A DNA stretch of 63,002 bases. Source: a virus. The number at the start of each line of letters is the position of its first letter. Positions within the stretch are counted from its first letter, which is position 1. Under the pieces are notes generated by a model that was not told the origin of the DNA, did no database searches, and saw nothing but the letters and a program-made list of their open reading frames with translations. Below, piece after piece: positions 434-52,496 of the stretch. The DNA is taken from IMG/VR virus record IMGVR_UViG_3300045988_138661; one strand, written 5' to 3'. The translations under genes were made by a program, and so were the position numbers.

Positions 434-460
434 CTCCCCAAAAATGGGGAGATTTTTTTG
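434..460 (+). terminator. rho-independent terminator (ctccccaaaaatggggag + T-run)
   Basis: perfect inverted repeat followed by tttttttg seen in sequence. Confidence 0.7.
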
Positions 461-1036: not shown

Positions 1037-1061
1037 CAAAAACCAGAAAGGAATTGATACT

Positions 1062-1436: not shown

Positions 1437-1480
1437 GGGCAAGGGCAGGGGATAAAAAAAATCCCCTGCCCTATAAAAAA

Positions 1481-1560
1481 ACTGTTGACAAACCAATAGC
1501 AAAGTGCTATACTATTATCAGAGGTTGAGAGAACGATGGTAAATCTCAATCTACTTTTCC
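1481..1560 (+). promoter_or_regulatory. promoter (ttgacaaacc..tgctatact) plus conserved 5-prime UTR stem-loop ggttgagagaacgatggtaaatctcaatc
   Basis: motif repeated at 4372-4400 ahead of another CDS; ttgaga/tctcaa inverted repeat. Confidence 0.45.
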
Positions 1561-1576
1561 AATAGGAGATGGTAAA

Positions 1577-2353
1577 ATGGGTATTGATAGGCGCAAAAAC
1601 TACGGCATTATGCTGGACACGGAAACCGCAAACACCATTCAAGACGGCGATAAGCTGGATATGTCAAATGTGCTTCCATACGACTTCGGCTGGGCGGTCA
1701 TTGATTCCAAGGGAAATGTTTATGAAACTCATTCTTTTGTGAATCGCGATATTTTCTGCTACGAGCGCGACCTCATGCAGTCTGCCTACTACGCCGACAA
1801 AATTCCCCGCTATGTCGAGGATATTAAGAACGGCACTCGCATTATGGCTGACCTTTACGAAATTCGTCTTGCATTCTGTGAATGTGTCGAGCGTTATAAC
1901 TGCTCTTTTGTCTGCGCTCATAATATGCGGTTCGACCTTAACGCCTGTAATAACGCGCAAAGATGGGATACGAAAAGCAAGTATCGCTATTTTTTCCCCT
2001 ACGGCCTTGAAGTTTGGGACACGCTGAAAATGGCGCGACAGGTTATTGGCAAAATGCCCACTTACCGCGACTATTGCGAAAAGAATGGCTACAAGACCAA
2101 AAACGGACAGCTCCGTTTTACAGCAGAAATTCTTTACCGCTTTATCAGCGGTGAAGATAGTTTTGATGAGTCCCACACGGGACTTGAAGATGTCCTCATT
2201 GAAGTTGAGATTTTGCGCTATTGCGTCCGACAGCACAAGAAAATGGAAAAGTCCCTTTTCAAAAATTCCACGGTGGAACGCCCTAAGCCTACCGAGTTTC
2301 AGCGCGCGCTCATGCGAAACATTAAGGAAAATCCTATGATAAACATGAGCTAA
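1577..2353 (+). CDS. DEDD-family 3-5 exonuclease (DnaQ/RNase T-like), 258 aa
   Basis: Exo I MLDTETAN, Exo II AHNMRFDLN, Exo III HTGLEDV motifs in order. Confidence 0.7.
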   Translation: MGIDRRKNYGIMLDTETANTIQDGDKLDMSNVLPYDFGWAVIDSKGNVYETHSFVNRDIFCYERDLMQSAYYADKIPRYVEDIKNGTRIMADLYEIRLAFCECVERYNCSFVCAHNMRFDLNACNNAQRWDTKSKYRYFFPYGLEVWDTLKMARQVIGKMPTYRDYCEKNGYKTKNGQLRFTAEILYRFISGEDSFDESHTGLEDVLIEVEILRYCVRQHKKMEKSLFKNSTVERPKPTEFQRALMRNIKENPMINMS

Positions 2354-2411
2354 AAAAATAGGGAATAGGGCTTGACAAGTCCTATTCCCTATGGTATAAT
2401 CAATACATCAA

Positions 2412-2708
2412 ATGAAAGAGGTGTTCCACATGACTGCTAAACAAGTCCTTTTTGTAGTCCCCGATGAAAATGACCCTCACATGGGCATTTTAATCAACCA
2501 TGACTATGTTATCTGCGCTGAATGCGGTGGCGTCTTTGAAGTCGATGAGGTTTTCATCATCAAGACCTATGACGTTTGGGTAAACTTTGAAGACGAAATT
2601 GCGGACGAGCTTGACCTGCTGACCGCAAAAGACATTGGCAAAGAGCTGAATAGCAAGGGAGAATCCGGTCGTTACGCATGGAAAGAAGCAATTAAGAGGG
2701 AGTTTTGA
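2412..2708 (+). CDS. hypothetical protein (98 aa)
   Basis: ORF after promoter cttgacaagtc..tggtataat and RBS gaaagaggtg. Confidence 0.6.
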   Translation: MKEVFHMTAKQVLFVVPDENDPHMGILINHDYVICAECGGVFEVDEVFIIKTYDVWVNFEDEIADELDLLTAKDIGKELNSKGESGRYAWKEAIKREF

Positions 2709-2746
2709 AAATGGATTTGGATTTCCACCTGCTGGAATAAATAAAA

Positions 2747-2777
2747 AACTGCCCAAAAATGGGCAGTTTTTTTTTGT
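2747..2777 (+). terminator. rho-independent terminator (ctgcccaaaaatgggcag + T9)
   Basis: inverted repeat plus T-run. Confidence 0.7.
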
Positions 2778-2860
2778 CTATTTTGCCTATTGACAAATGC
2801 GGATTTTTGTGATAAAATGGTCGGCCCGCTAACGCCCAAAGCGGGCCGAACTCACCATTA
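2772..2860 (+). promoter_or_regulatory. promoter plus GC hairpin, copy b (ggtcggcccgct...agcgggccgaac)
   Basis: same architecture and downstream conserved tcaccattatac...ttttgtcaagagaaa as copy a. Confidence 0.5.
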
Positions 2861-3410
2861 TACCACGCCCCGCCAATTTTGTCAAGAGAAAAGTTGCACA
2901 AAAATGAAAAAAATTTTTTCCCGTAATTTGGCTATTCTGTCAATTGTATTCTGTGGGCAATCTGCTATAATAGATAATGTCAGGAGGGAACAGTGAATTG
3001 CCGAACGGCTTCGCTGATGGGTGTGATAACTCGGTAACTGACCCGTTTTCAAAGAAATTTGAAATTCCCTCTTGACAAACCCCTGCGAGTGTGCTACAAT
3101 AGAAAATGTCAAGAGGGAGTAGCCCAAGAAATCCGAGGGCGCGCGACCTTGAGAAAGTACAGGAAGTAAACATAATACACCACGTTGTAAAGCCAAACGT
3201 TGAACGCGAAAGTGAGTGAGAGTGAGCCAGCTATACTTGAAGCGATTTTCGCTGACAGATAGACTGAGCCAACGGGCAATACCTTATCCGTCAGGTCGGG
3301 GTAGTAATTCGTGTAAAAAGTTTGCGAAACCTCTTGACAAACATTTCAAAGTGTGGTACACTTAATATATCAAAAGGGTAGCGACCTACCGCCAAAGAAA
3401 GGAATTGATA

Positions 3411-3790
3411 CTATGTCTACTTCTACTACTAAGAAGCTCACTAAGCGCGACCGTTTCGAGGCTCTGCTCAAGATGTCCGAGGTTCAGGCTGACCCCGCCA
3501 TGGTTGAGTTTATCAATCACGAGATTGACCTGCTGGCTCGCAAGAATGCCGGTGATAAGAAGCCGACCGCGAATCAGATTGCCAACGATGGTTACAAGGA
3601 CATTATCTTTGCCGAGCTGTCCGCCAATCCTGACAAGCTCTACACTGTGACCGAACTCATTAAGACTGTGGACGGTTTGGGTGACCTCTCCAATCAGCGC
3701 GTCTCCGCTCTTCTGCGTCAGATGATTGAAGCGAACGGTGTCGAGAAGATTGTCGACAAGCGCAAGTCCTATTTCCGTCTCGCCCACTGA
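3411..3790 (+). CDS. hypothetical protein, paralog family A (126 aa)
   Basis: start chosen at ATG after shared RBS gaaaggaattgatact, rather than the ORF-track start 3353. Confidence 0.7.
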
Positions 3791-3890
3791 TTCAGCGGGA
3801 GCGCCTAAAAAAAATTAGGCGCTCCCAAAAATTTCTCTTGACATTTGCTAACGGCGGTGTTATAATCATACTTGAAAGGGGGCAAAGAAA

Positions 3891-4298
3891 ATGCCTAAAA
3901 TGAGTGAAAAAGACTTTCAGGCAAAGATTGATAATCTGATGAAAAAGTTGGATTGTACTGCCGAGGAAGCAAAAGAAATTCTCATGGACGATGATGACAT
4001 TGACCATGGAATTGCCAAAGATTTTGACCTGTCCGCGGAAAAGCTCAAAGAAGCTAACAAGTACTCTAAGACTGGAACGCGCAAAGCGCCGACCGCTTAT
4101 AAGTTTGAGAAGCGACAGCGCAAGGAAAATCCCACAAAACGCTCGATTATCGCTGAACTTGCAACTTTTTTGCGTGAAAACAGCGAAAATGCGTGTGAAA
4201 ACGTGGAAATCACGAACATTGAACGCATGATTGCGTTCCATGTGGGCGAAAATGACTATGAATTGACCCTGATTCAGAAGCGAAAGCCCAAAAACTGA
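3891..4298 (+). CDS. hypothetical protein (135 aa)
   Basis: promoter tcttgacattt..tgttataat, RBS aagggggc, TGA stop, terminator follows. Confidence 0.6.
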   Translation: MPKMSEKDFQAKIDNLMKKLDCTAEEAKEILMDDDDIDHGIAKDFDLSAEKLKEANKYSKTGTRKAPTAYKFEKRQRKENPTKRSIIAELATFLRENSENACENVEITNIERMIAFHVGENDYELTLIQKRKPKN

Positions 4299-4311
4299 CA
4301 AAAAAGGGTGA

Positions 4312-4342
4312 AAAACCGCTGAAAAATGCGGTTTTTCACCCG
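4312..4342 (+). terminator. rho-independent terminator (aaaaaccgctgaaaaatgcggttttt)
   Basis: inverted repeat seen. Confidence 0.6.
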
Positions 4343-4415
4343 AAAACAAGTCAAAAAATGCAAAAAATAATGGTTGAGAGAACGATGGTAAACCTCAATC
4401 AATAGAGAGGATTTT

Positions 4416-4832
4416 GTGTCAATGGAAAAGATTACTATTAAACTACGCCGATTTAAGGACGGTAGACCGCCTGTTTCAATGGAGTTTATGCCCGATTGTG
4501 GCGAGAATCTGAAAGACGTTCAAGCGGTCTACTTTTTCAAGTTTTACAACAACAACAAACTTGAATTTAATAAAGTAGGCACTTCCGCAAAAGACGTTGT
4601 AGGGCGCTTGCGTGATGAAATCGGCGAGTATTCAAAAAAGTATCCTATCACGCGAGTTGAAATTCATCGAATCCGCTCTTGCGGAGACTACCCCGCCGAG
4701 GGCGCGGAAAGCGCGTTGCGTGCGGAACTGATTAGACGCTATCCCAAAGCGTTTAGAAAGAATGACCGCTTTTTTAATGTGGACATTAGCCCCACGGTGT
4801 TCGATGAAATCGTAAGCGCATTTCTTGCATAA
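4416..4832 (+). CDS. hypothetical protein (138 aa)
   Basis: preceded by the ggttgagagaacgatggtaaacctcaatc UTR motif; TAA stop; terminator follows. Confidence 0.6.
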   Translation: MSMEKITIKLRRFKDGRPPVSMEFMPDCGENLKDVQAVYFFKFYNNNKLEFNKVGTSAKDVVGRLRDEIGEYSKKYPITRVEIHRIRSCGDYPAEGAESALRAELIRRYPKAFRKNDRFFNVDISPTVFDEIVSAFLA

Positions 4833-4842
4833 ATATTCAATC

Positions 4843-4872
4843 AGCAGGTTGACTAAAACCTGCTGATTTTTT
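4843..4872 (+). terminator. rho-independent terminator (cagcaggtt...aacctgctg + T8)
   Basis: inverted repeat plus T-run. Confidence 0.7.
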
Positions 4873-4877
4873 TTGTG

Positions 4878-4960
4878 CATTTTGCCTATTGACAAGCGGG
4901 GAAAAGTGTGGTATAATTGGCCGGCCGTAAACTGACGCCACGGCCGGAATTTCGTATCAA
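4878..4960 (+). promoter_or_regulatory. promoter plus GC hairpin, copy c (ttggccggccgt...acggccggaa)
   Basis: ttgacaagc..tggtataat then inverted GC repeat. Confidence 0.5.
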
Positions 4961-5066
4961 TAGGCAAGTTCAACAATTTTTGAGCGAAATGTTTGTGCAT
5001 TTTGTCTATTGATTTTATCCCGAAAATGTAGTATCTTATAATTACAGAAAGGGAGAGTGATACAAA

Positions 5067-5192
5067 ATGCGGTGTGTTGAATGTCCGTACTACTACTGGA
5101 ATGACTACGTGGAGATGGAAATCTGCCATGCTGACCCCAACTGGCCCGCCCCTTGCGAATACGATGATGAACCAGAGGAGGAAGAAAAATGA
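5067..5192 (+). CDS. small Cys-rich acidic protein (41 aa)
   Basis: RBS aaagggagag; CxxC pairs; below ORF-track cutoff. Confidence 0.4.
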   Translation: MRCVECPYYYWNDYVEMEICHADPNWPAPCEYDDEPEEEEK

Positions 5193-5344
5193 AACATTAT
5201 CATTGCCCTGTAAATGGTTGGGATTGTCCTTACTACACAGACGACCCTCAGCCTTGTATGTGTACGCTGGAAGACCCATTCCACGATTGCGATGATTTCG
5301 CATCGATGTGGGATGAAGATGATGATTACACAGATTATGATTAA
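5189..5344 (+). CDS. small Cys-rich acidic protein (51 aa)
   Basis: ATG overlaps upstream TGA; RBS gaggagga; CP..C motifs. Confidence 0.4.
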   Translation: MKHYHCPVNGWDCPYYTDDPQPCMCTLEDPFHDCDDFASMWDEDDDYTDYD

Positions 5345-5349
5345 AATTT

Positions 5350-5390
5350 TCGGGCAGAAAAATCTGCCCGAATTTTTTTTTGTGTAAAAT
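5350..5390 (+). terminator. rho-independent terminator (cgggcagaaaaatctgcccg + T-run)
   Basis: inverted repeat plus T-run. Confidence 0.6.
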
Positions 5391-5393
5391 GCC

Positions 5394-5480
5394 TATTGAC
5401 AAAGCCTGCGGTTTGTGGTATAATAAAGGCGGGGCTGGCCGGGCCGGGGTGGGACGTCCCGGCCCGATTTCCCGATCGGT
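5394..5480 (+). promoter_or_regulatory. promoter plus GC hairpin, copy d (ggccgggccgg...ccggcccg)
   Basis: ttgacaaagc..tggtataat then GC inverted repeat. Confidence 0.45.
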
Positions 5481-5745
5481 ATACCCATATGCGAAATTTT
5501 TCATACTTCTAGCACCTCTCCATATGGCCCAAAAAAATCCCGAAAATTGACTTTTTATAAAAAATATGTTATAATGATAAAAAAAGACTTTTTTAAGCCC
5601 GCGTAGGATCATATGCCTTTATGATTAATTAAAAATTGCTTCGCCCTTACATTGTTTCACGCGTATGTTTTCATTCAAAAAAATCTTGACATTTTTAAAA
5701 AAAAAGTATATAATATATATAGAAAATAAGAAAAGAGGTATTCAT

Positions 5746-6123
5746 ATGGATATGAATGATATTGTTGCTCGTCTGAAAAATGGTGAGGACGCTCAGACTA
5801 TTGCGGACGAGATGGAAAATGCTCTGAATGATGCGATTAAGCAGGTGGAGAAGGAAACCAAGCAGGCCGATCGGAAGACCGCGCTCGCGCAAGAAATCGC
5901 CGATCGGATTAACGAGTATGCCGCTCTTAATGGCCACAAGGATTCCGCGTTGACCGCGTCCGATGTGGAGACTATCTTTGCTGAGGTTTACGGTCTTATG
6001 AACGGGGTCAACGATCTTATTGACGCGCTTTTCCCCAAGAGCACACAGGTAAAGGTTAAGAAGGTCAAGAAAACTGATGATGATGTAATTGCCGAGTTTT
6101 TGAACACTTTCATTAATAAGTGA
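5746..6123 (+). CDS. hypothetical protein (125 aa)
   Basis: first copy of AT-rich promoter-leader consensus upstream (5686-5745); start at ATG after RBS agaggt. Confidence 0.55.
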   Translation: MDMNDIVARLKNGEDAQTIADEMENALNDAIKQVEKETKQADRKTALAQEIADRINEYAALNGHKDSALTASDVETIFAEVYGLMNGVNDLIDALFPKSTQVKVKKVKKTDDDVIAEFLNTFINK

Positions 6124-6185
6124 ACAATGTGTCGGGTGAGATATTTTTCATCCTAAGAATTGACAATTTCACCAAGAATTGCCTA

Positions 6186-6226
6186 ATATGAAAGAAGAGA
6201 GACTAAAAAAAGTCTCTCTTTTTTTT
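6186..6226 (+). terminator. rho-independent terminator (agagagacttttttt agtctctctt + T-run)
   Basis: inverted repeat seen. Confidence 0.6.
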
Positions 6227-6467
6227 AGGTTCGGAGATCGGAGACGGGAAAAAGTGGTTGGTGGTTTAGTAAAACCGATCGGCACCACACTCTCGCAATT
6301 TTCGCTATTTTAGCAATTTCTACAATTATTCCACGTCGTCCGAATTATCCAAACCTTTAATTACTATCCAAAAGCGAATCAACCAATATAGGTCTATTAA
6401 CGGTCTCTTCCAGCGTTCCATAGGCAATATCCAACAGCCACACCAATTAAAAACCAAATAATACCAC

Positions 6468-6872
6468 TCATACAAGCAACTCCTCCAACTTTGTCTTAAA
6501 TACACTATCAAGAATGTCATCAGCAAGCGTTCTCTTACTGAGATCCACATCTTCTGATCCAGAAGCAACCCCATTAACGAGGGCGCTTGTGTCCGAAGTC
6601 GTCTGCGGCTGCTTCTCAAACGCGGGCTTCACATATCTATATTCATTCTCGATATATTCTATCTTACCTTGCTCAGTAATTCGACCAAGAACCTTACCAT
6701 TAAAAACCAACTTATTACAGTCATCCCAAATAAGATATGCGCCTTGCGTATTCTCCCTATTAAAAAACTCTTTCTTAGTAGTAGCAATTACATTCCAATT
6801 GCGGAAAACGCCTACCTTTTCTCCATTATTCTTTTTCAGTTCTTCAGTTGTAAATTTCATTTCAGTTTTCAA
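6468..6872 (-). CDS. hypothetical protein (134 aa), minus strand
   Basis: ORF with RBS aagga ~12 nt upstream on minus strand. Confidence 0.5.
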   Translation of the reverse strand: MKTEMKFTTEELKKNNGEKVGVFRNWNVIATTKKEFFNRENTQGAYLIWDDCNKLVFNGKVLGRITEQGKIEYIENEYRYVKPAFEKQPQTTSDTSALVNGVASGSEDVDLSKRTLADDILDSVFKTKLEELLV

Positions 6873-7016
6873 ATCCTTACTTTCATTTCATTTTTTGAAT
6901 AGTTCCCCGAGACAAATACCCCTGCTTTACGCAGAAATAACCTACCCCGGTATTCCATTTTAAAATTATATTTCTTTCTTTTATTATTTATATTATAATA
7001 TATTATTTATTATAAA

Positions 7017-7262
7017 TCAAATAAACTCCTAAAGAAATGGATTTTCTTCTATTGATTCAGGTCTATCCTCATATTTCATTTTAATTGGTTTTGTACTATC
7101 TGGAACAACAAAATAAATAGTATTATCTTTCATATATAAATCAGGTTTTATCATATTTGTTTTATCTATCATCTTATCAAACTATTCTTGCGTTCCTCTT
7201 ACAAATCTTACTATTGAAGGATTGCCTTTTCCGCCCCTTACTTCTTCATAATTATATTCCAT
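7017..7262 (-). CDS. hypothetical small protein, readable only if one in-frame TAG is sense
   Basis: strong RBS aaaggagt before ATG (complement 7262-7260); TAG in frame; ends TGA. Confidence 0.35.
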
Positions 7263-7349
7263 TACTTTTTACTCCTTTTGCTCTCATTACTGCCCCTGAA
7301 TTACCCAGCCGATATATATTAAATATTATCTATTATATATATATTAATA

Positions 7350-7600
7350 GGAACTTTTTGTTCCGAAAATATAGGCAATTCGGAACTAACGGTTCCAAAC
7401 ATAAGGGGCATTTTGGAACTAACGGTTCCGCAGTCCCTAATAATTCATCACGTTTTAAATGAATGGAACTAACGGTTCCGAATTTAATGTTAAAATTCAA
7501 ATTTGTCTTCTTTCGGAACTTTTTGTTCCACTTTACTATTATTAATTATCTATTTTTGAATAACAACCTATCCCTTCGGAACTTTTTGTTCCAGAAAATC
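7350..7600. repeat. cluster of about 7 GGAAC-N5/6-GTTCC palindromes (ggaactaacggttcc x3, ggaactttttgttcc x4)
   Basis: read directly in sequence; AT-rich non-coding context between divergent gene blocks. Confidence 0.7.
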
Positions 7601-7921
7601 ATTACAATTATCATAAAAATCATATTTTCCTTCCGCGGTTTCGACTAAATAGTTATTATTCTTTAAATCATTTATACCAGCATCAATAGCCTTGCGGACT
7701 GCCCTTGCTTCACTCGCCTTTGAATAATCTTTTCCTAACCAATTGGCATAAGCGGTCGGATTCATAGTCCAAACAAAATTATTAGTATTACCAGCTAAAT
7801 ATAAATATAATCTTAAACCATTCAATGTTAAACTCCCAGTAGCCTAACCCAACGTAGGAGTGTTTATTGAAGTAAAATTACCACTCTATAAAACTTCTTT
7901 ATGAATCTTAAATAGGCTCAT
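7568..7921 (-). CDS. hypothetical protein, about 117 aa with two in-frame TAG codons (ORF track shows only 7568..7825)
   Basis: ATG (complement 7921-7919) overlaps the TAA of the upstream minus-strand gene; in frame with the track ORF. Confidence 0.45.
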
Positions 7922-8097
7922 TATTTCTTGCCCATTAATTCATCCAGAGCCTAAACTAACTCCGGAGTCTTTTCATATATCCAACACATAAAGTTAGGCT
8001 TCCGCGGATTTGCGGTTGTTGTTATTGGATATATTCCTTTCTTTTCTAATTCTAAATATATTCTTAATGAATATATAATTTTATTGGCATTTGGCAT
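7921..8097 (-). CDS. hypothetical small protein (~58 aa) with one in-frame TAG
   Basis: RBS aaggagtcgctaatATG on minus strand. Confidence 0.35.
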
Positions 8098-8110
8098 ATT
8101 AGCGACTCCT

Positions 8111-8624
8111 TTAAGCAATTAAAATATTATTCTAAATATTTAAATGGAGCCAATCTTGATACTTTTTTATTATGTTCCGATTGAAAAATATAATCTAATG
8201 GAAGTTGAATTCCATCTTTAATCGGATAAGCATAAAATTCGAGACAATCTTTACGCTCTCTTAGGTATCCATGATGAACTAATAAGTCAAAATTAAATAC
8301 AATATCTTCTATATCTTTACAATACTAAATATCTGTATTTAAGATATCATTAAAATGAATATAATCTCCATCCTTTTTATTCATTACATAACACCATAAC
8401 TCAAAGTTAATATAATAAGCGAATGTGTATGTAAATAAATAAAGCGGAACTCCATTATATGCTTTATGTGAAGCCAAAGGCGGAATCTCTCTATTTATTT
8501 TAATAGGTTTAGTAAAATCTAATACTGCTCCTGTTTCATATAAATCATAATTATCAGGACTATTTTTTATAACTTGATAATGTTCCTTTTCAGCAATCTA
8601 TTCAATATCTTTAACCGCTCTCAT
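8111..8624 (-). CDS. hypothetical protein (~170 aa) with in-frame TAG codons
   Basis: manual translation of minus strand gives a continuous non-low-complexity protein once TAG is read through. Confidence 0.4.
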
Positions 8625-9081
8625 ACTACCTTTCTTATAATAGTATTTGTCGTGGAAAAAAGTTATCAATTCCTTTTTAGTCAATTTATAAGTCCTCCTC
8701 CTTTTCTTTTTAATTGTTCTATAATAAATAAAAATTTTTTTAATACTTTTAATTGCGTTTGCCCACAAATTTTTAAATATTTTTCTAAAAGTAATAATTT
8801 GTCTTACATTTTAATACAAAATGGTAAAAATTTTCTACAATTTTAACTAACGCGGTTTTCCCGTCTAATGTTCCTTCTATCCTAAGCATAGCGATCTCTA
8901 ATATCTACATAAGCGACTATGAAAAATTGCCTACAATTTTTACCTATTTTAATTACATTTAATATGTTTGCCCAAGCGCTTTTATTTTTTATTTAATTCA
9001 AAAAACATTTATTGATTTTTATTAAATTTTAATATATAATATAAATATAAAATAAAGAAAAACTATTAAAGGTGATAAAAA

Positions 9082-9279
9082 ATGCTAGCTAAACTTATTG
9101 ATAATCAAGGTCAAACTCATATCATCAATACGACCCATATTCATTCAATTTCCGTAAAGAATTCTGGGTCGGATAAACTTGTGATGGTTTTTTGGGACAA
9201 TGAAACAAAAACCGCGTATTATGTAAAACCCACTGAGTATAGCACTTTTATCAATTCTATTTTTAAGGAGGATAAGTAA
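9082..9279 (+). CDS. hypothetical protein (65 aa)
   Basis: RBS aaaggtga; first gene of a long plus-strand array. Confidence 0.55.
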   Translation: MLAKLIDNQGQTHIINTTHIHSISVKNSGSDKLVMVFWDNETKTAYYVKPTEYSTFINSIFKEDK

Positions 9280-9280
9280 T

Positions 9281-9619
9281 ATGTCTGTTGATTTTGGTTC
9301 TAAGCTCGTGTGTGGCTACAAAGTCTCTAAGAACCTTCTTGAGAACTATGATAATATGGCTGAGGCTATTGAACAGCTTACCGAAGAAGGTTATTGGCAT
9401 CGCGCAAGCTGCTATGATAACGACGAAAATCCTATCTTCGGCTATCTTCTCGGTAAGTCTTCCGCGGGCGAGGCCGTCCGCATCGACAACATCTTCATCG
9501 CTCCGCAGGAGTATTATCGCCTTAACGACACAATGAAGGAAGCTTACGCAAAGTTTCTCAAAATCCCCATCGAAAGCCTTGATGATCCCGAGATTTTTCT
9601 AATCTCTACAATTTCTTAA
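9281..9619 (+). CDS. hypothetical protein (112 aa); N-terminus SVDFG shared with 51192 CDS
   Basis: RBS aaggagga; coupled to upstream stop. Confidence 0.6.
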   Translation: MSVDFGSKLVCGYKVSKNLLENYDNMAEAIEQLTEEGYWHRASCYDNDENPIFGYLLGKSSAGEAVRIDNIFIAPQEYYRLNDTMKEAYAKFLKIPIESLDDPEIFLISTIS

Positions 9620-9635
9620 AGAAAGGAAAATAAAT

Positions 9636-9890
9636 ATGAAACAATGCCCTGTTTATTATGAAGCACGCTATTGGGACGATTCTGATAAAATGGATAGACT
9701 TACGTGCGGTTTTATCTTCGCGGAAACCCTCGCAGAAGCCGGCCGTTGGGCAGAAGAATATTTCGAAGATCTTATCACTATCGCATTTACCCCTCTTGAC
9801 GAGGGCCCTTTGCGCGTCAATCATGATCTTGCTAACAAGATTCTAAAATTTGACGGCGAAGATGCTCCATATTCTGCTAAAGTGCTATGA
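9636..9890 (+). CDS. hypothetical protein (84 aa)
   Basis: RBS aaaggaaaataaat; TGA stop overlapping next ATG. Confidence 0.55.
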   Translation: MKQCPVYYEARYWDDSDKMDRLTCGFIFAETLAEAGRWAEEYFEDLITIAFTPLDEGPLRVNHDLANKILKFDGEDAPYSAKVL

Positions 9891-10330
9891 TGACTTTCCT
9901 ATGTAAGAATTGCGCTTACCTTTTGTCTAATGGTGCTTGTCCAATAGCAGGATATTCACCCGACCCCAATCAACCCGTTTGTAATAGCTTTAGCGACACT
10001 AAGTATACTTGTAAAGTTTGTCATAACCCAATTTTCCATAAGCAAATGGTTATTGACGACAAAGGAAATACTTATTGCGATAAATGTTTCGCAAGACTTA
10101 GCACATGCGCTAATTGTGAACAAAATGTGAACTGCGCATTTAATGATTCTCCCGACACGCCGAAAATGGTCCAAAAGCGAGAAATCGTTGGAAATATGCA
10201 AGCCGTCACGAATGTCCGTAATCCCGACATTGTCGAAAAGACGTGTAAGAAAGGTTGTTCTTGTTTTAACGAAGAAAATGGCTGTATGAGAGATTTCAAT
10301 TGTTGCGATAAACTTAACCCTATTCTTTAA
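9887..10330 (+). CDS. Cys-rich protein (147 aa; many CxxC pairs)
   Basis: translation shows more than 20 Cys in zinc-ribbon-like spacing. Confidence 0.55.
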   Translation: MMTFLCKNCAYLLSNGACPIAGYSPDPNQPVCNSFSDTKYTCKVCHNPIFHKQMVIDDKGNTYCDKCFARLSTCANCEQNVNCAFNDSPDTPKMVQKREIVGNMQAVTNVRNPDIVEKTCKKGCSCFNEENGCMRDFNCCDKLNPIL

Positions 10331-10344
10331 AGGAGTTTTTAAAT

Positions 10345-10944
10345 ATGTTTATCTTCTTCTTGAAAACGCTGATGGGCGGATTTGTTCTACCGGCCTTAAT
10401 TATTTTTCTAATTTTCGCCATTCATTCTGCTTATCGTAGTTATAGGTATTATAGCACTCTTTCCGATCCTAAGGCCAAGCATTTCCGCAATTGGTCTCAT
10501 CGCGACCGCGTTGATATTCTCCGTCAAATTATTCCTGCCTTTTGGATCGGCGTTTGTCTTTACCTCGCGGTAGGCATGTTTGGCGGAGTTATGATGTCTT
10601 CGGCTGTTGATGACTATTCTAAGTATGATTATACGATTACGGAAGCCCAAGAGCTAACAAGTATAGATAACGATGGCAATATCTATACTTACCGTGCCTT
10701 TGAAGGTGAGACTGTTTATTACACTTATCTTACACTCAGCACTGATGGCATTATGAGCACTGAGACCCATCCCGTGAATGACACAGTAATTGTTTACTCT
10801 AATCAGGTTCCGCACATTGAAAAGCGTCTCCCACGTTATGGCGATTGGAGAGAGTGGTTCTTTGTCTGCTCTAAGTCAACGCGAGCTTACCTTTATATTC
10901 CAGAAGGAACAGATATAGCGAAAGATTATATTGTGGAGAAATAA
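10345..10944 (+). CDS. membrane protein (199 aa; two hydrophobic helices)
   Basis: N-terminal hydrophobic stretches FVLPALIIFLIFAI and AFWIGVCLYLAVGMFGGVMM. Confidence 0.55.
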   Translation: MFIFFLKTLMGGFVLPALIIFLIFAIHSAYRSYRYYSTLSDPKAKHFRNWSHRDRVDILRQIIPAFWIGVCLYLAVGMFGGVMMSSAVDDYSKYDYTITEAQELTSIDNDGNIYTYRAFEGETVYYTYLTLSTDGIMSTETHPVNDTVIVYSNQVPHIEKRLPRYGDWREWFFVCSKSTRAYLYIPEGTDIAKDYIVEK

Positions 10945-10945
10945 A

Positions 10946-11215
10946 ATGAACAAAGGTGATTTAATTTATTTAAAAATGTCTAACGGCGACAGTGTTTTCT
11001 TCAACGTAAATGAAATCGTTGCGGTTCTTGTTTCTCATATTGCCAAGGATAATTCAGATGATGACAGTATTTCTACTGAAACTTTTGAAACAAAACTTGA
11101 CTTTTATATGAATGATAAATCTCATTATGAATATGTCTTTGATGATAGGTATTCTAATGGTACCGCAATTCTAAAACAACTTAAAAATTTTGTTTCTGAG
11201 GAGGCATTCAAATGA
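10946..11215 (+). CDS. hypothetical protein (~89 aa)
   Basis: start moved to ATG after RBS ggag (track start 10931). Confidence 0.5.
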   Translation: MNKGDLIYLKMSNGDSVFFNVNEIVAVLVSHIAKDNSDDDSISTETFETKLDFYMNDKSHYEYVFDDRYSNGTAILKQLKNFVSEEAFK

Positions 11216-11457
11216 TTGTAATTTTACACAACTTCCGCGGTTCTAAGTATCTTATTAATACTAACAATATTAACGCCGTCGAAATTCGACCCGTGAATTC
11301 TGAAACTTATGCAAAAGAAATCGCGGAAGCAGGCGGTGGTCCGCTCTCGTTTATTTACATTGATTGGCAATTCAATGCTTCAACAAGCATTCTCGTATCT
11401 TCTGAAACTGCCGAAGAGTTTCTCAATCTTTTTGAAGGCGCGATTGAAATCTTTTAA
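11212..11457 (+). CDS. hypothetical protein (81 aa)
   Basis: ATGA overlap with upstream stop, RBS gaggaggc. Confidence 0.55.
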   Translation: MIVILHNFRGSKYLINTNNINAVEIRPVNSETYAKEIAEAGGGPLSFIYIDWQFNASTSILVSSETAEEFLNLFEGAIEIF

Positions 11458-11515
11458 TTTCTAAATATATTATAACAAAAATTTTGGGTAAAATCAATTA
11501 ATGGAGGAATAATAT

Positions 11516-11731
11516 ATGAAGCATATGCCTGTCTTATTCATTTATGACGCGTTCTGTGATGAGATTTACTGCGCCACAAATATAAGTGGATCTGACGCTC
11601 TCGAAATCGCTATGTCCGCGATCGAAGAGAATGTTGAGAAACGATTCCATTGTCGTAAATTTGATACAAGACTTTACAAAGATGCATTGGAAGATATGAT
11701 TATTTATTATAATTATGCTCCCGTTCTCTAA
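11516..11731 (+). CDS. hypothetical protein (71 aa)
   Basis: RBS aatggaggaa; hairpin terminator-like aaaggatttgcgcaaaccgcaaatcctttttt after it. Confidence 0.55.
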   Translation: MKHMPVLFIYDAFCDEIYCATNISGSDALEIAMSAIEENVEKRFHCRKFDTRLYKDALEDMIIYYNYAPVL

Positions 11732-11767
11732 TTTTTAAAAGGATTTGCGCAAACCGCAAATCCTTTT

Positions 11768-11829
11768 TTGATTTTTTATAAAAAATAATATATAATATAT
11801 ATATAAAGTAAAGAAAGGAAATAAAAATT
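11768..11829 (+). promoter_or_regulatory. AT-rich promoter/leader consensus (ttgatttttTATAAAAAATAATATATAATATATATATAAAGTAAAGAAAGGAA)
   Basis: one of ~18 near-identical copies. Confidence 0.55.
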
Positions 11830-12150
11830 ATGACTACTTCTAATTCTAAGATTAAAACTCATTCCATTGGCATTCTTTGTGATACGGCGGGAGACCATAA
11901 TTTCTATTTCTTGAATGCATCTGAGGCCGATATGCAGGAAATGTTTATGGAGTATTGTCGAGATATGGTCGATGATAGTCTTATGGAGCATCAGTTCGAG
12001 GTAATTCAGAAAGACTCTGATAATGATTGGTATCTTTATCACGGCGAGATGACTGGTGATTGGACGAAGAGATTCTCTTCTTATCTCGATATGATGAATA
12101 ACGTCGCCGATGATGTTTTTATTGATTTCGTTGATGCGATTGAAATGTAA
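11830..12150 (+). CDS. acidic hypothetical protein (106 aa)
   Basis: ATG placed ~10 nt after consensus aagga leader. Confidence 0.6.
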   Translation: MTTSNSKIKTHSIGILCDTAGDHNFYFLNASEADMQEMFMEYCRDMVDDSLMEHQFEVIQKDSDNDWYLYHGEMTGDWTKRFSSYLDMMNNVADDVFIDFVDAIEM

Positions 12151-12161
12151 GGAGAATAATT

Positions 12162-12443
12162 ATGAAAGAAATTACTTGTTATAAAATTGAAGATGGAGTG
12201 ATTGGTAAGTCTTGGACCTTCGCCAATATTTCTGAAGCAGAAATACAAGAGTTATATCTCGCTTTCATTGAAGGCGCAATCGAAGAAGATATTATGGAAA
12301 CTCAGCGAATCGAATACTTCGATCTCCCTCTTCCTAAGCCCGATTGGTGGCGAGTAGAAGAGGATTATCAGAAAGAAGTTGATAGACTTCGTCTTATGGA
12401 TAGCGAGTTCTATATGCATAAATTTAATGCTTATACGTTTTAA
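12162..12443 (+). CDS. hypothetical protein (93 aa)
   Basis: RBS aaggagaa. Confidence 0.55.
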   Translation: MKEITCYKIEDGVIGKSWTFANISEAEIQELYLAFIEGAIEEDIMETQRIEYFDLPLPKPDWWRVEEDYQKEVDRLRLMDSEFYMHKFNAYTF

Positions 12444-12454
12444 GGAGAATATAA

Positions 12455-13189
12455 ATGATTCCTGGACTTTATGAAATCTTTAATACGCGCTGGGGTGGTC
12501 AGACGGTCTGGGTATCCTCTGATTGGCATTTTGGCGATTCAGATTTGCGGATTGGCCACCCCAACCGCATTTCTGATGACGATCTTGTAAAACTTTTAAA
12601 TAGCAAAGCAGGTCGGAAAGACACACTCATTTGTCTCGGTGATGTAGGTGATATCTCTTATGTGCGGAAACTGCGCGCCGGTTATAAGGTTCTCATCAAG
12701 GGCAACCACGATGCTGGCTCTGAAAACTATAAGCGCAAAATTGTCAAGAAGAGATTCTCTATGAATCACTATCGAAAGGACGAAGCGCTTATGGAAATGA
12801 AGCGTCTTTATCCTGATTGTAAGTATTTTATTGATTCGGGATTTAATTTCTGCACTCCCTTTGAATATTGGGAGATTACCGCGGATAATGGTCTTTTCGA
12901 CGAAGTATATGATGGCGTGCTCCTTATTGGTGAGAAACTTATGCTTTCTCACGAACCAATTAAGCAGGACTGGGCTCTCGATCTTCACGGCCATGACCAC
13001 AATCATAAAGAGACGGACATCTATCACAAGAATGTTTGTATAGATGTGTTTGGCCCCGCCCCTTTAAACTTAAATCAGTTCATGAAAAATGGCCCGACTG
13101 CGAAGATCGAGAGCGTCCATAGAAAGACGATTGATACCGCGACCAAGAGAAAGCAGAAGCGAGGAGGTAAAAAGATATGGGAGAAATGA
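12455..13189 (+). CDS. calcineurin-like metallophosphoesterase / Ser-Thr phosphatase family (244 aa)
   Basis: motifs SDWHFG (GDxHG), GDVGD (GDxxDRG-like), GNHD (GNHE-like), HGH in canonical order. Confidence 0.65.
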   Translation: MIPGLYEIFNTRWGGQTVWVSSDWHFGDSDLRIGHPNRISDDDLVKLLNSKAGRKDTLICLGDVGDISYVRKLRAGYKVLIKGNHDAGSENYKRKIVKKRFSMNHYRKDEALMEMKRLYPDCKYFIDSGFNFCTPFEYWEITADNGLFDEVYDGVLLIGEKLMLSHEPIKQDWALDLHGHDHNHKETDIYHKNVCIDVFGPAPLNLNQFMKNGPTAKIESVHRKTIDTATKRKQKRGGKKIWEK

Positions 13190-13346
13190 TTATTATGCTA
13201 TTTATCATATTAGTATTTTTCGGCTTTATGTATATGGATCTACTGAATGATGATACTATGCCTCTCAATGAGAAGTATTATTATTGCGGTATGGGCATGT
13301 TGCTTTGCCTGTTTGCCGGTTTTATTCAGTCAGTCTTTTATGTTTA
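13176..13346 (+). CDS. small membrane protein (~56 aa)
   Basis: below ORF-track cutoff; two hydrophobic segments. Confidence 0.35.
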
Positions 13347-13423
13347 AAATAATAATTCTTTGTTTTTGCGCTCTTGGCATTTTATCCGTTTTGTTCGATG
13401 ACTTAGATTAAGGAGAAGGATAT

Positions 13424-13630
13424 ATGGTAGGATTTATTATAGAAATTATTCTTGGATTAATTGTAATAAGGCTTGCCCTATATATCTTCAACCTTACCGA
13501 CTGCGCTGACCCTTTTGAAGATATGTTTCTGATTGATACTTGTCTCATTACCGGAACCCTTCTACTTGTAATCTCTGCACTCCCAATCATTTTAGGATTG
13601 TATGGAGTAATTCAATATTTTATTCATTAA
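13424..13630 (+). CDS. small membrane protein (68 aa)
   Basis: RBS aaggagaagg; highly hydrophobic. Confidence 0.5.
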   Translation: MVGFIIEIILGLIVIRLALYIFNLTDCADPFEDMFLIDTCLITGTLLLVISALPIILGLYGVIQYFIH

Positions 13631-13643
13631 GGAGAAGATAGTT

Positions 13644-14048
13644 ATGCTTTATGTAGTTTTTATTCTTGCGTTCGTGGCCTTTATTGCTCTCGCAGCTTGG
13701 GGTTTTTATAGATATTCTGATCTTGGTTGTATTAGTTCGATTGTCGGCATCATTGGTACTGCTATCTTTGGAATCGTAATAGTATTTTCTACTATTGTGG
13801 TTGTCAATGAAAATGTATGCAGTGATGCTCTTTACGAGAAATATACAACTCGTAAGGCTACTCTTGAATGGCGACTTGAGCAGAACTATACTGATAATGA
13901 CAATAACCTTGGTGCAACTGAACTTTATAAAGAAATTCAGGAATATAATGAAGACCTTGCGAGCGCAAAGGCTAATCGCGCGAACCCTTGGTTGAAGGTT
14001 TTTGCGGGAGAGTATGTTGATCGACTTGAACCTATTGAGTTAAAGTAA
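13644..14048 (+). CDS. membrane-anchored protein (134 aa)
   Basis: RBS aaggagaaga; N-terminal double TM. Confidence 0.5.
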   Translation: MLYVVFILAFVAFIALAAWGFYRYSDLGCISSIVGIIGTAIFGIVIVFSTIVVVNENVCSDALYEKYTTRKATLEWRLEQNYTDNDNNLGATELYKEIQEYNEDLASAKANRANPWLKVFAGEYVDRLEPIELK

Positions 14049-14059
14049 GGAGAATAAAA

Positions 14060-14650
14060 ATGATTATTTGTAAACATTGCGGTCAGCCCATTTCTGATAA
14101 GTCAAAAGTTTGTCCGTTTTGTGGAGGCAATGTAAAGATTCCTTTCTATGATAAGACGTGGTTCCATATTCTCCTTGTGCTTATTATCTTTACGGGAATT
14201 GATTATGTCATTAGGAATCCCAATCCTGAACCCACGGTATATAGCCCTCCGATTGTAGAAAGCGCGGGAGCCTCGTCTCAGAGTTCGGTTGATCCCGTCG
14301 AAGAGACCGATGAGCAGGAAACCGCGGAATACTCATCCGAATCTCTTTCTAAGATGATTGATATGGTAGAAGATTATCCTATTAAGGCTGAGGAAGAGTA
14401 TACCGGTAAGTATATTCAGGTATCAGGATATCTTGACACCGTTGATAGCGATGGTAAATATTTTACTATTGTATCCGATCCTGATGATTTTACTCTCTTA
14501 GATAATATCCATTGGAGTATGGACAAGGACTCTGATGTTTATGATTTCATTAAGAATGCCAAGGAAGGCTCTTATATTACCGTTTGTGGCGAAATCACCG
14601 ATGTAGGCGAAACTATTTATTACATGGGCGACGCTCATTCAGTTCATTAA
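14060..14650 (+). CDS. zinc-ribbon plus TM protein (196 aa)
   Basis: CKHCGQ...CPFCGG then hydrophobic helix. Confidence 0.5.
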   Translation: MIICKHCGQPISDKSKVCPFCGGNVKIPFYDKTWFHILLVLIIFTGIDYVIRNPNPEPTVYSPPIVESAGASSQSSVDPVEETDEQETAEYSSESLSKMIDMVEDYPIKAEEEYTGKYIQVSGYLDTVDSDGKYFTIVSDPDDFTLLDNIHWSMDKDSDVYDFIKNAKEGSYITVCGEITDVGETIYYMGDAHSVH

Positions 14651-14658
14651 ATAAAATA

Positions 14659-14686
14659 AGGACTTATGTTAATTCATAAGTCCTTA
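14659..14686 (+). terminator. hairpin terminator (aaggacttatgttaattcataagtcctt)
   Basis: inverted repeat before next promoter copy. Confidence 0.5.
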
Positions 14687-14740
14687 TTTTATTTTTATAA
14701 AAAAATATAATATAATATATATATAAAGTTAAGAAAGGAA

Positions 14741-52190: not shown

Positions 52191-52262
52191 TGAGGGGTAG
52201 CATAGCGGCAAATGCGCTGGTCTCTAAAACCAGATAAGTGGGATCGACACCCACCCCCTCCG
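52191..52262 (+). tRNA. suppressor tRNA, anticodon CUA (reads UAG); Gln-like features
   Basis: acceptor tgagggg/cccctcc (1-72 mismatch), U8 A9, D-arm gcat-agcggcaa-atgc, anticodon arm ctggt-ctCTAaa-accag, 4-nt variable loop, T-arm gtggg-atcgaca-cccac, G73; no encoded CCA. Confidence 0.65.
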
Positions 52263-52496
52263 CGGTGCTAAAAACAAAACCTCCTCGTGGTAGCACTGGG
52301 TAATGCTAATTTGTTTATAAAGGTAATAAAGGCAATATGTATAAAAGTCATTGATAAGTCCTTTTATACGATAGGAAGTAGGATTAGAAGCGTCCATCTT
52401 TTAAAGAGCGAAATGCGGCGATCGGGTATTTCCTTGGTCCAGTAGACACACTATCGGAGGTTGTGGGTTAACCTAATTAAAACCCTCAAAATAAAA

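What the first reader, a model, noticed from the sequence alone, without database searches (positions are those of the whole stretch)
6900..8700. Hidden minus-strand recoded genes in an apparently non-coding AT-rich block
The ORF track shows almost nothing here. Translating the minus strand with TAG as sense gives a run of RBS-preceded, translationally coupled genes (8624..8111, 8097..7921, 7921..7568, 7262..7017). They have non-repetitive protein-like sequences, and one upstream TAA overlaps the next ATG. This suggests TAG recoding is not confined to the late structural module.
Basis: seen in the sequence. Interest (0 to 1): 0.6.

Follow-up and report, generated by a model that had tools for sequence, protein, structure and literature searches.

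The report
TAG-recoded phage replication-origin gene island
The apparently empty AT-rich block holds four real minus-strand phage genes in which the stop codon TAG is read as glutamine, and they look like the phage's replication-origin module, so this is a clear but unsurprising case of known phage stop-codon recoding.

Summary
Four minus-strand ORFs (A 8684..8127, B 8097..7921, C 7921..7490, D 7262..7017) are interrupted only by TAG (9 in 467 codons). All have homologs. Selection is purifying across the TAGs (A vs a 93%-identical relative: 26 synonymous, 1 non-synonymous change). TAG alternates with CAA/CAG in relatives, and the window encodes a tRNA(CUA).

- A starts at TTG 8684, not ATG 8624.
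- A ends at 8127, not 8111.
- C ends at TAA 7490.

A and C are paralogous winged-helix proteins with remote similarity to replication initiators (HTH_36, DnaD_N, Rep3_N, lambda O). Six exact GGAAC-N5-GTTCC palindromes occur nowhere else in the 63 kb. They run from C's tail to a 38-nt AT tract. A 201-kb relative carries a non-homologous initiator-like gene with its own iterons at the same locus.

Best reading: a code-15 replication-origin or regulatory island. It is the most TAG-dense locus in the window, between TAG-free blocks, and this holds in four relatives.

Recoding outside late genes is already published, so this is a new member of a known kind. Whether TAG gates the island's expression is untested.

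The parts
8127..8684 (-). Gene A, 185 codons, TTG start behind AAAGGAGGAGG, TAA stop. In-frame TAG at codons 29 and 120. Predicted two winged-helix domains.
7921..8097 (-). Gene B, 58 codons, AAGGAG ribosome-binding site, TAG at codon 49. Its TAA overlaps the ATG of C by one base.
   Evidence: Homologs in L004 and L005 continue past the TAG position with a conserved ALDE[IL][ML]G; TAG aligns with AAG (Lys) and ATG (Met). Sub-threshold DUF5659 match (E 0.015-0.05, 13.9 bits against a cut-off of 23.6).
7490..7921 (-). Gene C, 143 codons, TAG at codons 12, 26, 118 and 124, TAA stop. A winged-helix core (residues ~30-105) and a disordered tail that carries two of the palindromes, read as EQKVP.
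   Evidence: AlphaFold2 of P0001 (97% identical): residues 50-100 at pLDDT 82-90, tail at 28. The exhaustive profile search found 249 relatives; 29 of 76 scanned match Pfam HTH_36, 7 DnaD_N, 3 Rep3_N and 2 Phage_rep_O. C is homologous to A's C-terminal domain by hhalign (probability 91.6%, E 8e-7).
7350..7592 (.). Six exact 15-bp palindromes GGAAC-N5-GTTCC at 7350, 7382, 7415, 7465, 7515 and 7578. Read on the minus (gene) strand, three have spacer AAAAA and three CGTTA. The two at 7515 and 7578 lie inside gene C.
   Evidence: There are six in the window, all here, against 0.02 expected. They are present at the same place in every relative fetched (1-8 copies per locus; short or truncated contigs hold fewer), with an extra copy just upstream of gene A in L004, L005 and L016. 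The last site plus the AT tract is invariant between the window, L004 and L005, although the proteins are only ~50% identical.
7312..7349 (.). 38-nt tract with a single G/C (TATTAATATATATATAATAGATAATATTTAATATATAT) next to the last palindrome. Candidate DNA-unwinding element, or the -10 region of a promoter for D.
7017..7262 (-). Gene D, 81 codons, AAGGAG ribosome-binding site, TAG at codons 27 and 78, TGA stop. Function unknown.
   Evidence: 447 homolog clusters, with Gln in nearly all 25 aligned members at both TAG positions. Codon 27 is TAG in the window and L006 but CAG in L009, L011 and L012. Codon 78 is TAG in the window, L009, L011 and L012 but CAA in L006.
6468..6860 (-). Gene E, 130 codons, no TAG. 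Downstream neighbour with its own TTGATT-N17-TATAAT promoter-like site (7020-6992) and a hairpin (6939-6917) in its leader. Probably a separate unit from A-D.
   Evidence: dN/dS 0.18 versus L006.
8685..9081 (.). AT-rich divergent intergenic region between A (minus strand) and the first plus-strand gene (9082). Holds one copy (8915-8936, minus strand) of the 22-23-nt repeat that serves as the iteron of the alternative module in relative L014.
52191..52263 (+). tRNA with anticodon CUA (ARAGORN labels it 'Pyl' from the anticodon only). The presumed amber suppressor needed to translate A-D.
   Evidence: It lies about 1 kb downstream of a copy of the plus-strand promoter cassette (51162).

Best explanation
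The block is a minus-strand island of four genuine protein-coding genes (A, B, C, D) belonging to a ~180-200-kb phage that reads TAG as glutamine. It does so with its own tRNA(CUA).

A and C are paralogous winged-helix DNA-binding proteins. Next to and partly inside gene C lies an array of six identical-arm palindromes (GGAAC-N5-GTTCC), followed by a 38-nt AT tract.

The most likely mechanism is that C, and perhaps A, binds the palindromes as dimers. This would assemble an initiation complex and open the AT tract. In that case the island is the phage's replication initiator plus origin, built like lambda O and ori-lambda. In some relatives an extra site sits in front of gene A, which would allow autoregulation.

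A, C and D each have a TAG within their first 30 codons. Full-length products can therefore be made only when the suppressor tRNA is active, so the island's output depends on the phage's code switch.

Shown: the genes are real, TAG is sense and corresponds to Gln, and the repeats are specific and conserved.

Inferred: DNA binding, origin function, and any timing role of the TAGs.

Sub-confidences: real TAG(Gln)-recoded genes 0.95; winged-helix protein plus cognate sites 0.8; replication origin rather than purely transcriptional control 0.55.
For: Coding and recoding:
- Open frames and codon usage.
- Homologs.
- Conserved A-B-C order in L004 and L005, with no TAG in L004.
- TAG alternating with CAA/CAG.
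- dN/dS of 0.01-0.4.
- tRNA(CUA).

DNA-binding proteins:
- C's extended family matches HTH_36, DnaD_N, Rep3_N and Phage_rep_O.
- A and C are homologous.

Sites:
- Six palindromes occur only here in 63 kb.
- They are conserved in all relatives, and the last site plus AT tract is invariant at ~50% protein identity.

Module behaviour:
- In the 201-kb relative L014 the same locus holds a non-homologous 216-aa gene with weak winged-helix (HTH_36/LexA) matches.
- That gene has its own seven 23-nt iterons. Protein and sites were therefore exchanged together, as in lambdoid and plasmid replication modules.

Dependence on suppression:
- TAG makes up 9 of 16 Gln-type codons in A-D, against 0 of 79 in the adjacent 28 plus-strand genes.
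- The same contrast holds in L006, L009, L014 and L016.

Lambda analogy: ori-lambda lies within gene O (abstract of PMC6022878, listed).
Against: - C's model is only moderately confident (pLDDT 61).
- HTH_36-like and MarR/TrmB-like winged helices are also common in plain transcription factors.
- No helicase, helicase loader or primase was identified in the island.
- The GC-skew minimum at 9-10 kb can be explained by gene orientation alone.
- The AT tract resembles the -10 region of the phage's own promoter family, so the array could be an operator set.
- Expression timing was not measured.
- TAG density also tracks low GC and mobile insertions.
Confidence: 0.6

Rival explanations
1. Same recoded genes, but C (with or without A) is a transcription factor and the six palindromes are operators. 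Binding would control a promoter in the AT tract that drives D. In relatives with a site in front of A, it would also control the A-B-C promoter. The island would be a regulatory switch, not an origin.
For: - Perfect palindromes with a 10-bp half-site spacing are typical of dimeric HTH operators.
- An extra site lies 15-40 nt upstream of A's start in L004, L005 and L016.
- The AT tract contains TATAAT and resembles the -10/discriminator part of the ten-copy plus-strand promoter cassette.
- C's remote relatives also match MarR_2, TrmB and IclR-type winged helices.
Against: - Six to eight sites over ~250 bp is more than promoters usually need.
- Two sites lie inside the coding tail of C.
- Protein and cognate repeats are swapped together in L014, with five repeats upstream and two downstream of the gene.

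The two readings are not exclusive, because iteron initiators commonly autoregulate.
Confidence: 0.28
2. The genes are real and recoded, but the high TAG density has no regulatory meaning. It would be a by-product of AT-biased mutation (CAG to TAG by C-to-T change) in an AT-rich, horizontally exchanged cassette, inside a genome where TAG is already harmless.
For: - The island is 26-31% GC, against 38-44% in its flanks.
- CAG is the preferred Gln codon in TAG-free blocks (55 CAG, 24 CAA) and is nearly absent where TAG is used.
- The few TAG-bearing genes in the flanks of relatives are insertions, such as an HNH endonuclease.
- The replacement module in L014 is 22-23% GC and has even more TAGs.
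Against: - Some very AT-rich genes have no TAG, for example YcaO at 36232-38016 (25% GC, 594 codons).
- Some 37-39% GC genes have 6-7 TAGs, so GC alone does not predict TAG use.
- The sharp contrast between island and flanks recurs in four lineages, including one with a non-homologous module.
Confidence: 0.45
3. TAG is a true stop here. Under this reading the block holds only short standard-code ORFs or decaying pseudogenes, and the long frames are an AT-bias artefact.
For: - Code 11 gives ORFs of 47-85 aa in the same frames.
- Three TAGs lie near C-termini (B codon 49 of 58, D codon 78 of 81, C codons 118 and 124 of 143). These could act as leaky stops without destroying the proteins.
- The shuffle test alone is only moderately significant.
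Against: - Purifying selection holds on both sides of every TAG.
- Full-length TAG-free homologs exist.
- TAG and Gln-codon exchanges occur at otherwise conserved Gln columns.
- A cognate tRNA(CUA) is present.
- TAGs at codons 12, 26, 27 and 29 would remove almost the whole of C, D and A.
Confidence: 0.03

Closest known systems
Genetic code 15 (TAG read as Gln) phages: crAss-like, Lak, Garnet, Topaz and Agate clades (Borges et al., bioRxiv 10.1101/2021.08.26.457843; Peters et al., PMC9523058) and phAss-1 (PMC10607447)
   Same: - In-frame TAG in conserved genes.
- A phage-encoded tRNA(CUA).
- TAG aligned with Gln in homologs.
- A mosaic of TAG-free and TAG-containing blocks.
- TAG present in lysis and tail genes as well (endolysin 49509-50366 and tail-fibre genes).
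   Different: Here the densest TAG use in the window is in a small inverted island of DNA-binding, origin-like genes, not in structural or lysis genes. The published model stresses late and lytic genes and notes that replication genes are only 'variably' recoded. No nucleotide match was found in the INPHARED phage collection.
Bacteriophage lambda O protein and ori-lambda
   Same: - An initiator with an N-terminal winged-helix domain.
- Several palindromic binding sites lying partly inside the initiator's own coding sequence.
- An AT-rich region next to the sites.
- Initiator and sites exchanged as a unit between related phages.
   Different: - C has no direct Pfam Phage_rep_O hit; only 2 of 76 remote relatives do.
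- C is 143 aa with a disordered tail and has no recognisable C-terminal helicase-loader-recruiting domain.
- No P-like or DnaC-like gene was seen.
- The sites are 15 bp and number six, not 19 bp and four (the lambda figures are from general knowledge).
DnaD / Bacillus-type DnaB / RepA_N and Rep_3 iteron-plasmid initiators (winged-helix replication initiators)
   Same: - A has two winged-helix domains, like the WH1/WH2 of Rep_3 initiators.
- A repeat array lies next to the gene.
   Different: - A's family has no Pfam match.
- The sites are palindromes, not directly repeated iterons.
- Two separate paralogous proteins, A and C, are present where one would be expected.
Pfam DUF5659 (small proteins of Firmicutes phages)
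   Same: B matches profile positions 10-49 across the TAG position in 3 of 4 family members.
   Different: The score is 13.9 bits against a cut-off of 23.6, so this is only a lead. The function of DUF5659 is unknown in any case.

Membership tests
Code-15 (TAG to Gln) recoded phage genes | In-frame TAG inside ORFs that are under purifying selection on both sides of the codon | tested here: met
   A versus L006: 3/0, 16/1 and 7/0 synonymous/non-synonymous codon changes in the three TAG-separated segments. C and D behave similarly.
Code-15 (TAG to Gln) recoded phage genes | TAG aligns with Gln codons in homologs | tested here: met
   - A column 167: TAG in L008 versus CAA/CAG.
- C column 26 of the alignment (column 44): CAA in L004.
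- D column 28: CAG in L009, L011 and L012.
- D column 87: CAA in L006.
- Gln is nearly invariant (at least 90% of the 25 aligned sequences) at both D positions.
- Other TAG columns are variable (Glu, Met, Lys, Asp/Asn, Ser).
Code-15 (TAG to Gln) recoded phage genes | Suppressor tRNA with anticodon CUA encoded by the phage | tested here: met
   tRNA at 52191-52263. Its Gln identity (U1-C72 mismatch, G73) was read by eye and general knowledge. It was not tested with a classifier.
Code-15 (TAG to Gln) recoded phage genes | TAG not used as a terminator | tested here: inconclusive
   All called genes end in TAA or TGA, but the caller forbade TAG stops. Near-C-terminal TAGs in B, C and D could act as partial stops.
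Code-15 (TAG to Gln) recoded phage genes | Peptides with Gln at TAG positions | not testable with these tools
   Needs metaproteomics, as in PMC9523058.
Iteron-type replication initiator plus origin (lambda O / Rep_3 / DnaD-like) | Initiator has a winged-helix domain assignable to an initiator family | tested here: inconclusive
   - No direct Pfam, PHROG or PDB sequence hit.
- Remote relatives of C match HTH_36 (29 of 76), DnaD_N (7), Rep3_N (3) and Phage_rep_O (2).
Iteron-type replication initiator plus origin (lambda O / Rep_3 / DnaD-like) | Cluster of at least four repeated binding sites beside or inside the initiator gene | tested here: met
   Six exact GGAAC-N5-GTTCC sites at 7350-7592, unique in the window and conserved in relatives.
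Iteron-type replication initiator plus origin (lambda O / Rep_3 / DnaD-like) | AT-rich unwinding region next to the sites | tested here: met
   7312-7349 has 37 of 38 A/T. It is invariant in L004 and L005. Unwinding itself was not tested.
Iteron-type replication initiator plus origin (lambda O / Rep_3 / DnaD-like) | Initiator and cognate repeats co-vary between relatives | tested here: met
   L014 has a different 216-aa gene and seven copies of a different 23-nt repeat at the same locus.
Iteron-type replication initiator plus origin (lambda O / Rep_3 / DnaD-like) | Helicase or helicase-loader recruitment, and origin activity | not testable with these tools
   No helicase or loader gene was recognised in the island. 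Origin activity needs experiments or read-depth mapping.
Pfam HTH_36 (PF13730) | Score above the gathering threshold (25 bits) | tested here: not met
   The window's C, P0001 and the other close family members give no hit at E up to 0.1. Only more distant relatives pass.
Pfam DUF5659 (PF18903), for gene B | Score above the gathering threshold (23.6 bits) | tested here: not met
   13.9 bits, E 0.015-0.05 in 3 of 4 members.

The most novel reading that the evidence does not exclude
The phage may use its genetic-code switch to license replication-origin firing, or a regulatory switch built on the same island, and not only lysis and virion genes.

The origin/initiator island is the most TAG-dense locus in the window. 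It sits between TAG-free blocks that carry host-type promoters. It stays TAG-dense in four lineages, even where a non-homologous initiator-and-iteron cassette has replaced it.

Full-length initiator would therefore appear only after the phage tRNA(CUA) accumulates.
Probability: 0.22. Interest if true: 0.65.

Novelty: new member of a known kind. Interest (0 to 1): 0.42.

Why it matters
- **Annotation.** Standard-code pipelines leave this 1.7-kb block empty and so miss what is probably the replication or regulatory core of a widespread ~180-200-kb phage group. Gene D alone has 447 sequence clusters in public metagenomes.
- **New families and testable sites.** It adds two unannotated winged-helix families (A and C) and a well-defined set of binding sites that can be tested directly.
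- **Recoding model.** The prevailing view is that stop-codon recoding mainly delays late and lytic functions. Here the densest recoding is in a DNA-binding, origin-like island. If the pattern is selected and not mutational, the code switch would also time replication or an early-to-middle transition.

Tried and rejected
- Pfam and PHROGs on the four products: nothing significant. Scanning each member of the A and close C families against Pfam also found nothing.
- IMG/VR scan with A: no relatives.
- blastn of 6000-9500 against INPHARED phages: no match.
- PDB sequence-profile searches for C, A, D and B: only chance-level hits. The 'designed pentatricopeptide' hits for B have no single passing stretch and are repeat artefacts.
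- Foldseek of A's model against viral structures (BFVD): nothing with E <= 0.001. The AFDB50 library was unavailable.
- Rfam on 6000-9500: only a chance miRNA hit, so the conserved non-coding stretch is not a known RNA.
- Sigma-70 promoter scan of 6300-9400: 20 sites against 17.8 expected, so uninformative. Some terminator-like hits are the palindromes themselves.
- GC skew as origin evidence: the minimum at 9-10 kb coincides with the strand switch and cannot be separated from transcription-linked skew.
- Lysogeny-module reading (repressor or integrase): no integrase was found. The 326-aa minus-strand ORF at 4632-5612 has no Pfam hit, and relatives call the genes of that region on the other strand. 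Window 1-6000 is collinear phage DNA, not host.
- GC content alone as predictor of TAG use: rejected because of counter-examples.
Full report
**1. What the window is**

The window is phage DNA throughout. A 24.7-kb metagenomic contig (locus L006) is collinear with window 15847 down to 152 at 82-96% identity. Relatives sit on contigs of 164-201 kb.

The window carries 18 tRNA genes, including one with anticodon CUA at 52191-52263. Long ORFs cover 59% of the sequence under code 11 and 80% when TAG is sense. Tail-fibre genes lie at 55-63 kb, and an endolysin with two in-frame TAGs lies at 49509-50366.

**2. Checking the observation**

On the minus strand each claimed frame is free of TAA and TGA over the whole gene and is interrupted only by TAG. 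The TAA+TGA rate in the off-frames is 0.06-0.11 per codon. On that basis the chance of such open frames is 5e-9 (A), 2e-7 (C), 6e-5 (D) and 0.025 (B). A dinucleotide-preserving shuffle of 7000-8700 gives a weaker but consistent answer: the longest frame is 190 codons, against a maximum of 182 in 500 shuffles.

Codon-usage log-odds, trained on 23 long genes of the same window with stop codons excluded, are best in the claimed frame out of six for A, C and D. B's claimed frame is the least negative of its six but essentially neutral. Position-specific GC and purine content match the training genes. Ribosome-binding sites and the one-base TAA/ATG overlap between B and C are present.

Three boundaries needed correction:
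- A stops at 8127, not 8111.
- A starts at TTG 8684 behind AAAGGAGGAGG. The extra 20 residues match the conserved MT[RK]xE N-terminus of 14 of the 18 homologs aligned; the other four start at the internal Met.
- C ends at TAA 7490.

**3. Are they genes, and is TAG sense?**

Homology:
- C has 11 close homolog clusters and 249 relatives in an exhaustive profile search.
- A has 19 clusters.
- D has 447 clusters.
- B has homologs in the syntenic loci.

Two ~50%-identical relatives keep the order A-B-C on short contigs. L004 has no TAG in any of the three genes. L005 has TAGs at different positions in C. Their proteins align straight across every TAG of the window, including the conserved ALDE[IL][ML]G after B's TAG and the first 26 residues of C.

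Among close relatives TAG alternates with Gln codons:
- A column 167: TAG in L008, CAA/CAG elsewhere.
- D codon 27: TAG in the window and L006, CAG in L009, L011 and L012.
- D codon 78: TAG in the window and three relatives, CAA in L006.
- C codon 26 aligns with CAA in L004.

Both D positions are nearly invariant Gln columns in a sample of 25 family members.

Selection is strongly purifying. For A against L006 there are 27 differences, 25 of them at third positions, 26 synonymous and 1 non-synonymous. They are spread over all three TAG-delimited segments. dN/dS is 0.01 for A, 0.11 for C and 0.40 for D. Public gene calls on the relatives already read these ORFs through TAG.

The artefact and pseudogene readings are therefore rejected.

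**4. What the genes are**

No product matches Pfam, PHROGs or PDB sequences directly.

- **A and C together.** Profile-profile comparison shows that A's second domain and C are homologous (probability 91.6%, E 8e-7).
- **B.** It gives a sub-threshold DUF5659 match.
- **D.** Function remains unknown.

**5. The repeat array**

Six exact GGAAC-N5-GTTCC palindromes lie at 7350, 7382, 7415, 7465, 7515 and 7578, and nowhere else in the 63 kb (0.02 expected). The two at 7515 and 7578 lie inside C's tail, where they are read as EQKVP. The array ends at a 38-nt tract with a single G/C.

Every relative fetched has at least one such site at the same place; short or truncated contigs hold fewer (1-8 per locus). 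L004, L005 and L016 have one more just upstream of gene A. The last palindrome plus the AT tract is invariant between the window, L004 and L005. It is 79-91% identical at the DNA level where the flanking proteins are only ~50% identical.

In the 201-kb relative L014 the flanks and gene D are conserved, but A-B-C is replaced. In its place are a non-homologous 216-aa gene (weak HTH_36 and LexA winged-helix matches) and a 189-aa gene with a GIY-YIG-like motif (seen by eye; no Pfam hit). Seven copies of a different 23-nt repeat surround the 216-aa gene. One copy of that repeat survives in the window at 8915-8936.

A DNA-binding protein that is exchanged together with its cognate repeats is the classic behaviour of replication-origin modules. 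The layout recalls ori-lambda, which lies within gene O (PMC6022878 abstract). I therefore favour an initiator-plus-origin reading at about 0.55. An operator/promoter reading is the main rival, and the two are not exclusive.

**6. Recoding pattern**

| Block | Genes | TAG | Gln-type codons that are TAG |
|---|---|---|---|
| A-D island | 4 | 9 in 467 codons (19.3 per 1000) | 56% (9 of 16) |
| Plus-strand 9281-24481 | 28 | 0 | 0 of 79 (Fisher p 1e-8 versus A-D) |
| Plus-strand ORFs in 1-6123 | 4 | 0 | 0 |
| Gene E | 1 | 0 | 0 |
| 24.6-42.3 kb | 17 | 43 | 31% |
| 42.4-63 kb | 17 | 15 | 13% |

The same contrast between island and flanks holds in four relatives. Counts are TAG/Gln codons for the island versus the flanks:
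- L006: 8/10 versus 6/80.
- L009: 8/11 versus 4/48.
- L014: 16/6 versus 0/34.
- L016: 4/5 versus 1/44.

A ten-copy promoter and leader cassette (TTGATT-N17-TATAAT...AGAAAGTTAAGAAAGG) occurs only on the plus strand. It is found in the TAG-free block and in the tRNA array, about 1 kb upstream of tRNA(CUA). None precedes A-D. This fits, but does not prove, a scheme with three steps. Standard-code genes and the suppressor tRNA are expressed first. Full-length A, C and D then appear only once suppression is active. The dependence arises because each has a TAG within its first 30 codons.

A mutational explanation remains strong:
- The island is 26-31% GC.
- CAG is preferred in TAG-free blocks and nearly absent where TAG is used.
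- The few flank genes with TAGs in relatives are insertions, such as an HNH endonuclease.

GC alone does not predict TAG use, however. YcaO has 25% GC and no TAG in 594 codons, while two genes of 37-39% GC have 6-7 TAGs each.

**7. Comparison with what is known, and novelty**

TAG-to-Gln recoding with phage suppressor tRNAs is established. The Borges et al. preprint already notes that 26-71% of genes carry in-frame stops, depending on clade.

What is new is local:
- Corrected gene models.
- Two unannotated winged-helix families.
- A defined palindrome array with an AT tract.
- Evidence of cassette exchange at the locus.
- The observation that this island, and not the virion genes, is the TAG-densest part of the window, in several lineages.

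I class it as a new member of a known kind, with moderate interest (0.42). The code-switch-gates-replication reading is the most novel possibility left open (probability about 0.22).

Noticed in passing
window 11791, 14711, 15797, 20034, 20149, 22298, 42368, 42628, 44839, 51162 (all + strand): A ten-copy conserved promoter-plus-leader cassette (TTGATT-N17-TATAAT, then ATATATAGAAAGTTAAGAAAGG and an ATG). It occurs only on the plus strand, in the TAG-free gene block and in the tRNA array, and none is expected by chance. It probably marks one temporal class of transcription units, which includes the suppressor tRNA.
   Followed up: partly
window 25505-38906: A very AT-rich cluster (20-33% GC) resembling a peptide-modification pathway. 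It has three radical-SAM proteins (one fused to a GT2 glycosyltransferase), a YcaO cyclodehydratase (E 5e-28), and weak M28-peptidase and U32-peptidase matches. Some of its genes hold 4-9 TAGs, while YcaO (594 aa) and its neighbour hold none.
   Followed up: no
window 42416-52926: An array of 18 tRNA genes, including tRNA(CUA) at 52191-52263 and an odd call at 42416-42486 with a two-base 'anticodon'.
   Followed up: no
window 8915-8936 (-): A single copy (2 mismatches) of the 22-23-nt repeat that occurs seven times around the alternative initiator-like gene of relative L014. It may be a relic of, or a cross-talk site for, the other module type.
   Followed up: partly
L014 3566-4982: In a 201-kb relative the A-B-C genes are replaced by a 216-aa winged-helix-like gene with 10 TAGs and a 189-aa gene with a GIY-YIG-like motif (seen by eye; no Pfam hit) and 5 TAGs, at 22-23% GC. 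Gene D and both flanks are kept.
   Followed up: partly
window genes overall: Gln codon choice flips between blocks. CAG dominates in TAG-free blocks (55 CAG, 24 CAA) and is rare where TAG is used (0 of 7 in A-D; 15 of 96 and 22 of 104 in the two later blocks). It looks as if TAG has taken the place of CAG.
   Followed up: partly
L006 11187-11801, 5021-5746; L009 2126-2854: Relatives carry insertions that the window lacks: an HNH/NUMOD4 homing endonuclease and a ~241-aa gene. These are the only TAG-bearing genes in the otherwise TAG-free flanks.
   Followed up: no
L008 1691-2110: One relative has a deletion that fuses the start of B to C (protein P0004), and its gene A has four TAGs. This is either an assembly artefact or a natural variant.
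   Followed up: no
window 39602-42336: Two adjacent paralogous glycine-rich proteins (471 and 445 aa). The 445-aa one matches phrog_1589 (unknown function), and they carry 7 and 6 TAGs at 37-39% GC, so heavy recoding is not limited to AT-rich genes.
   Followed up: no
window 1045-1432, 3397-3775, 2727-3009 and 422-675: Segments of the left 4 kb match more than one place in L006 at 72-78% identity. This indicates paralogous gene families in the 42-46% GC left arm.
   Followed up: no
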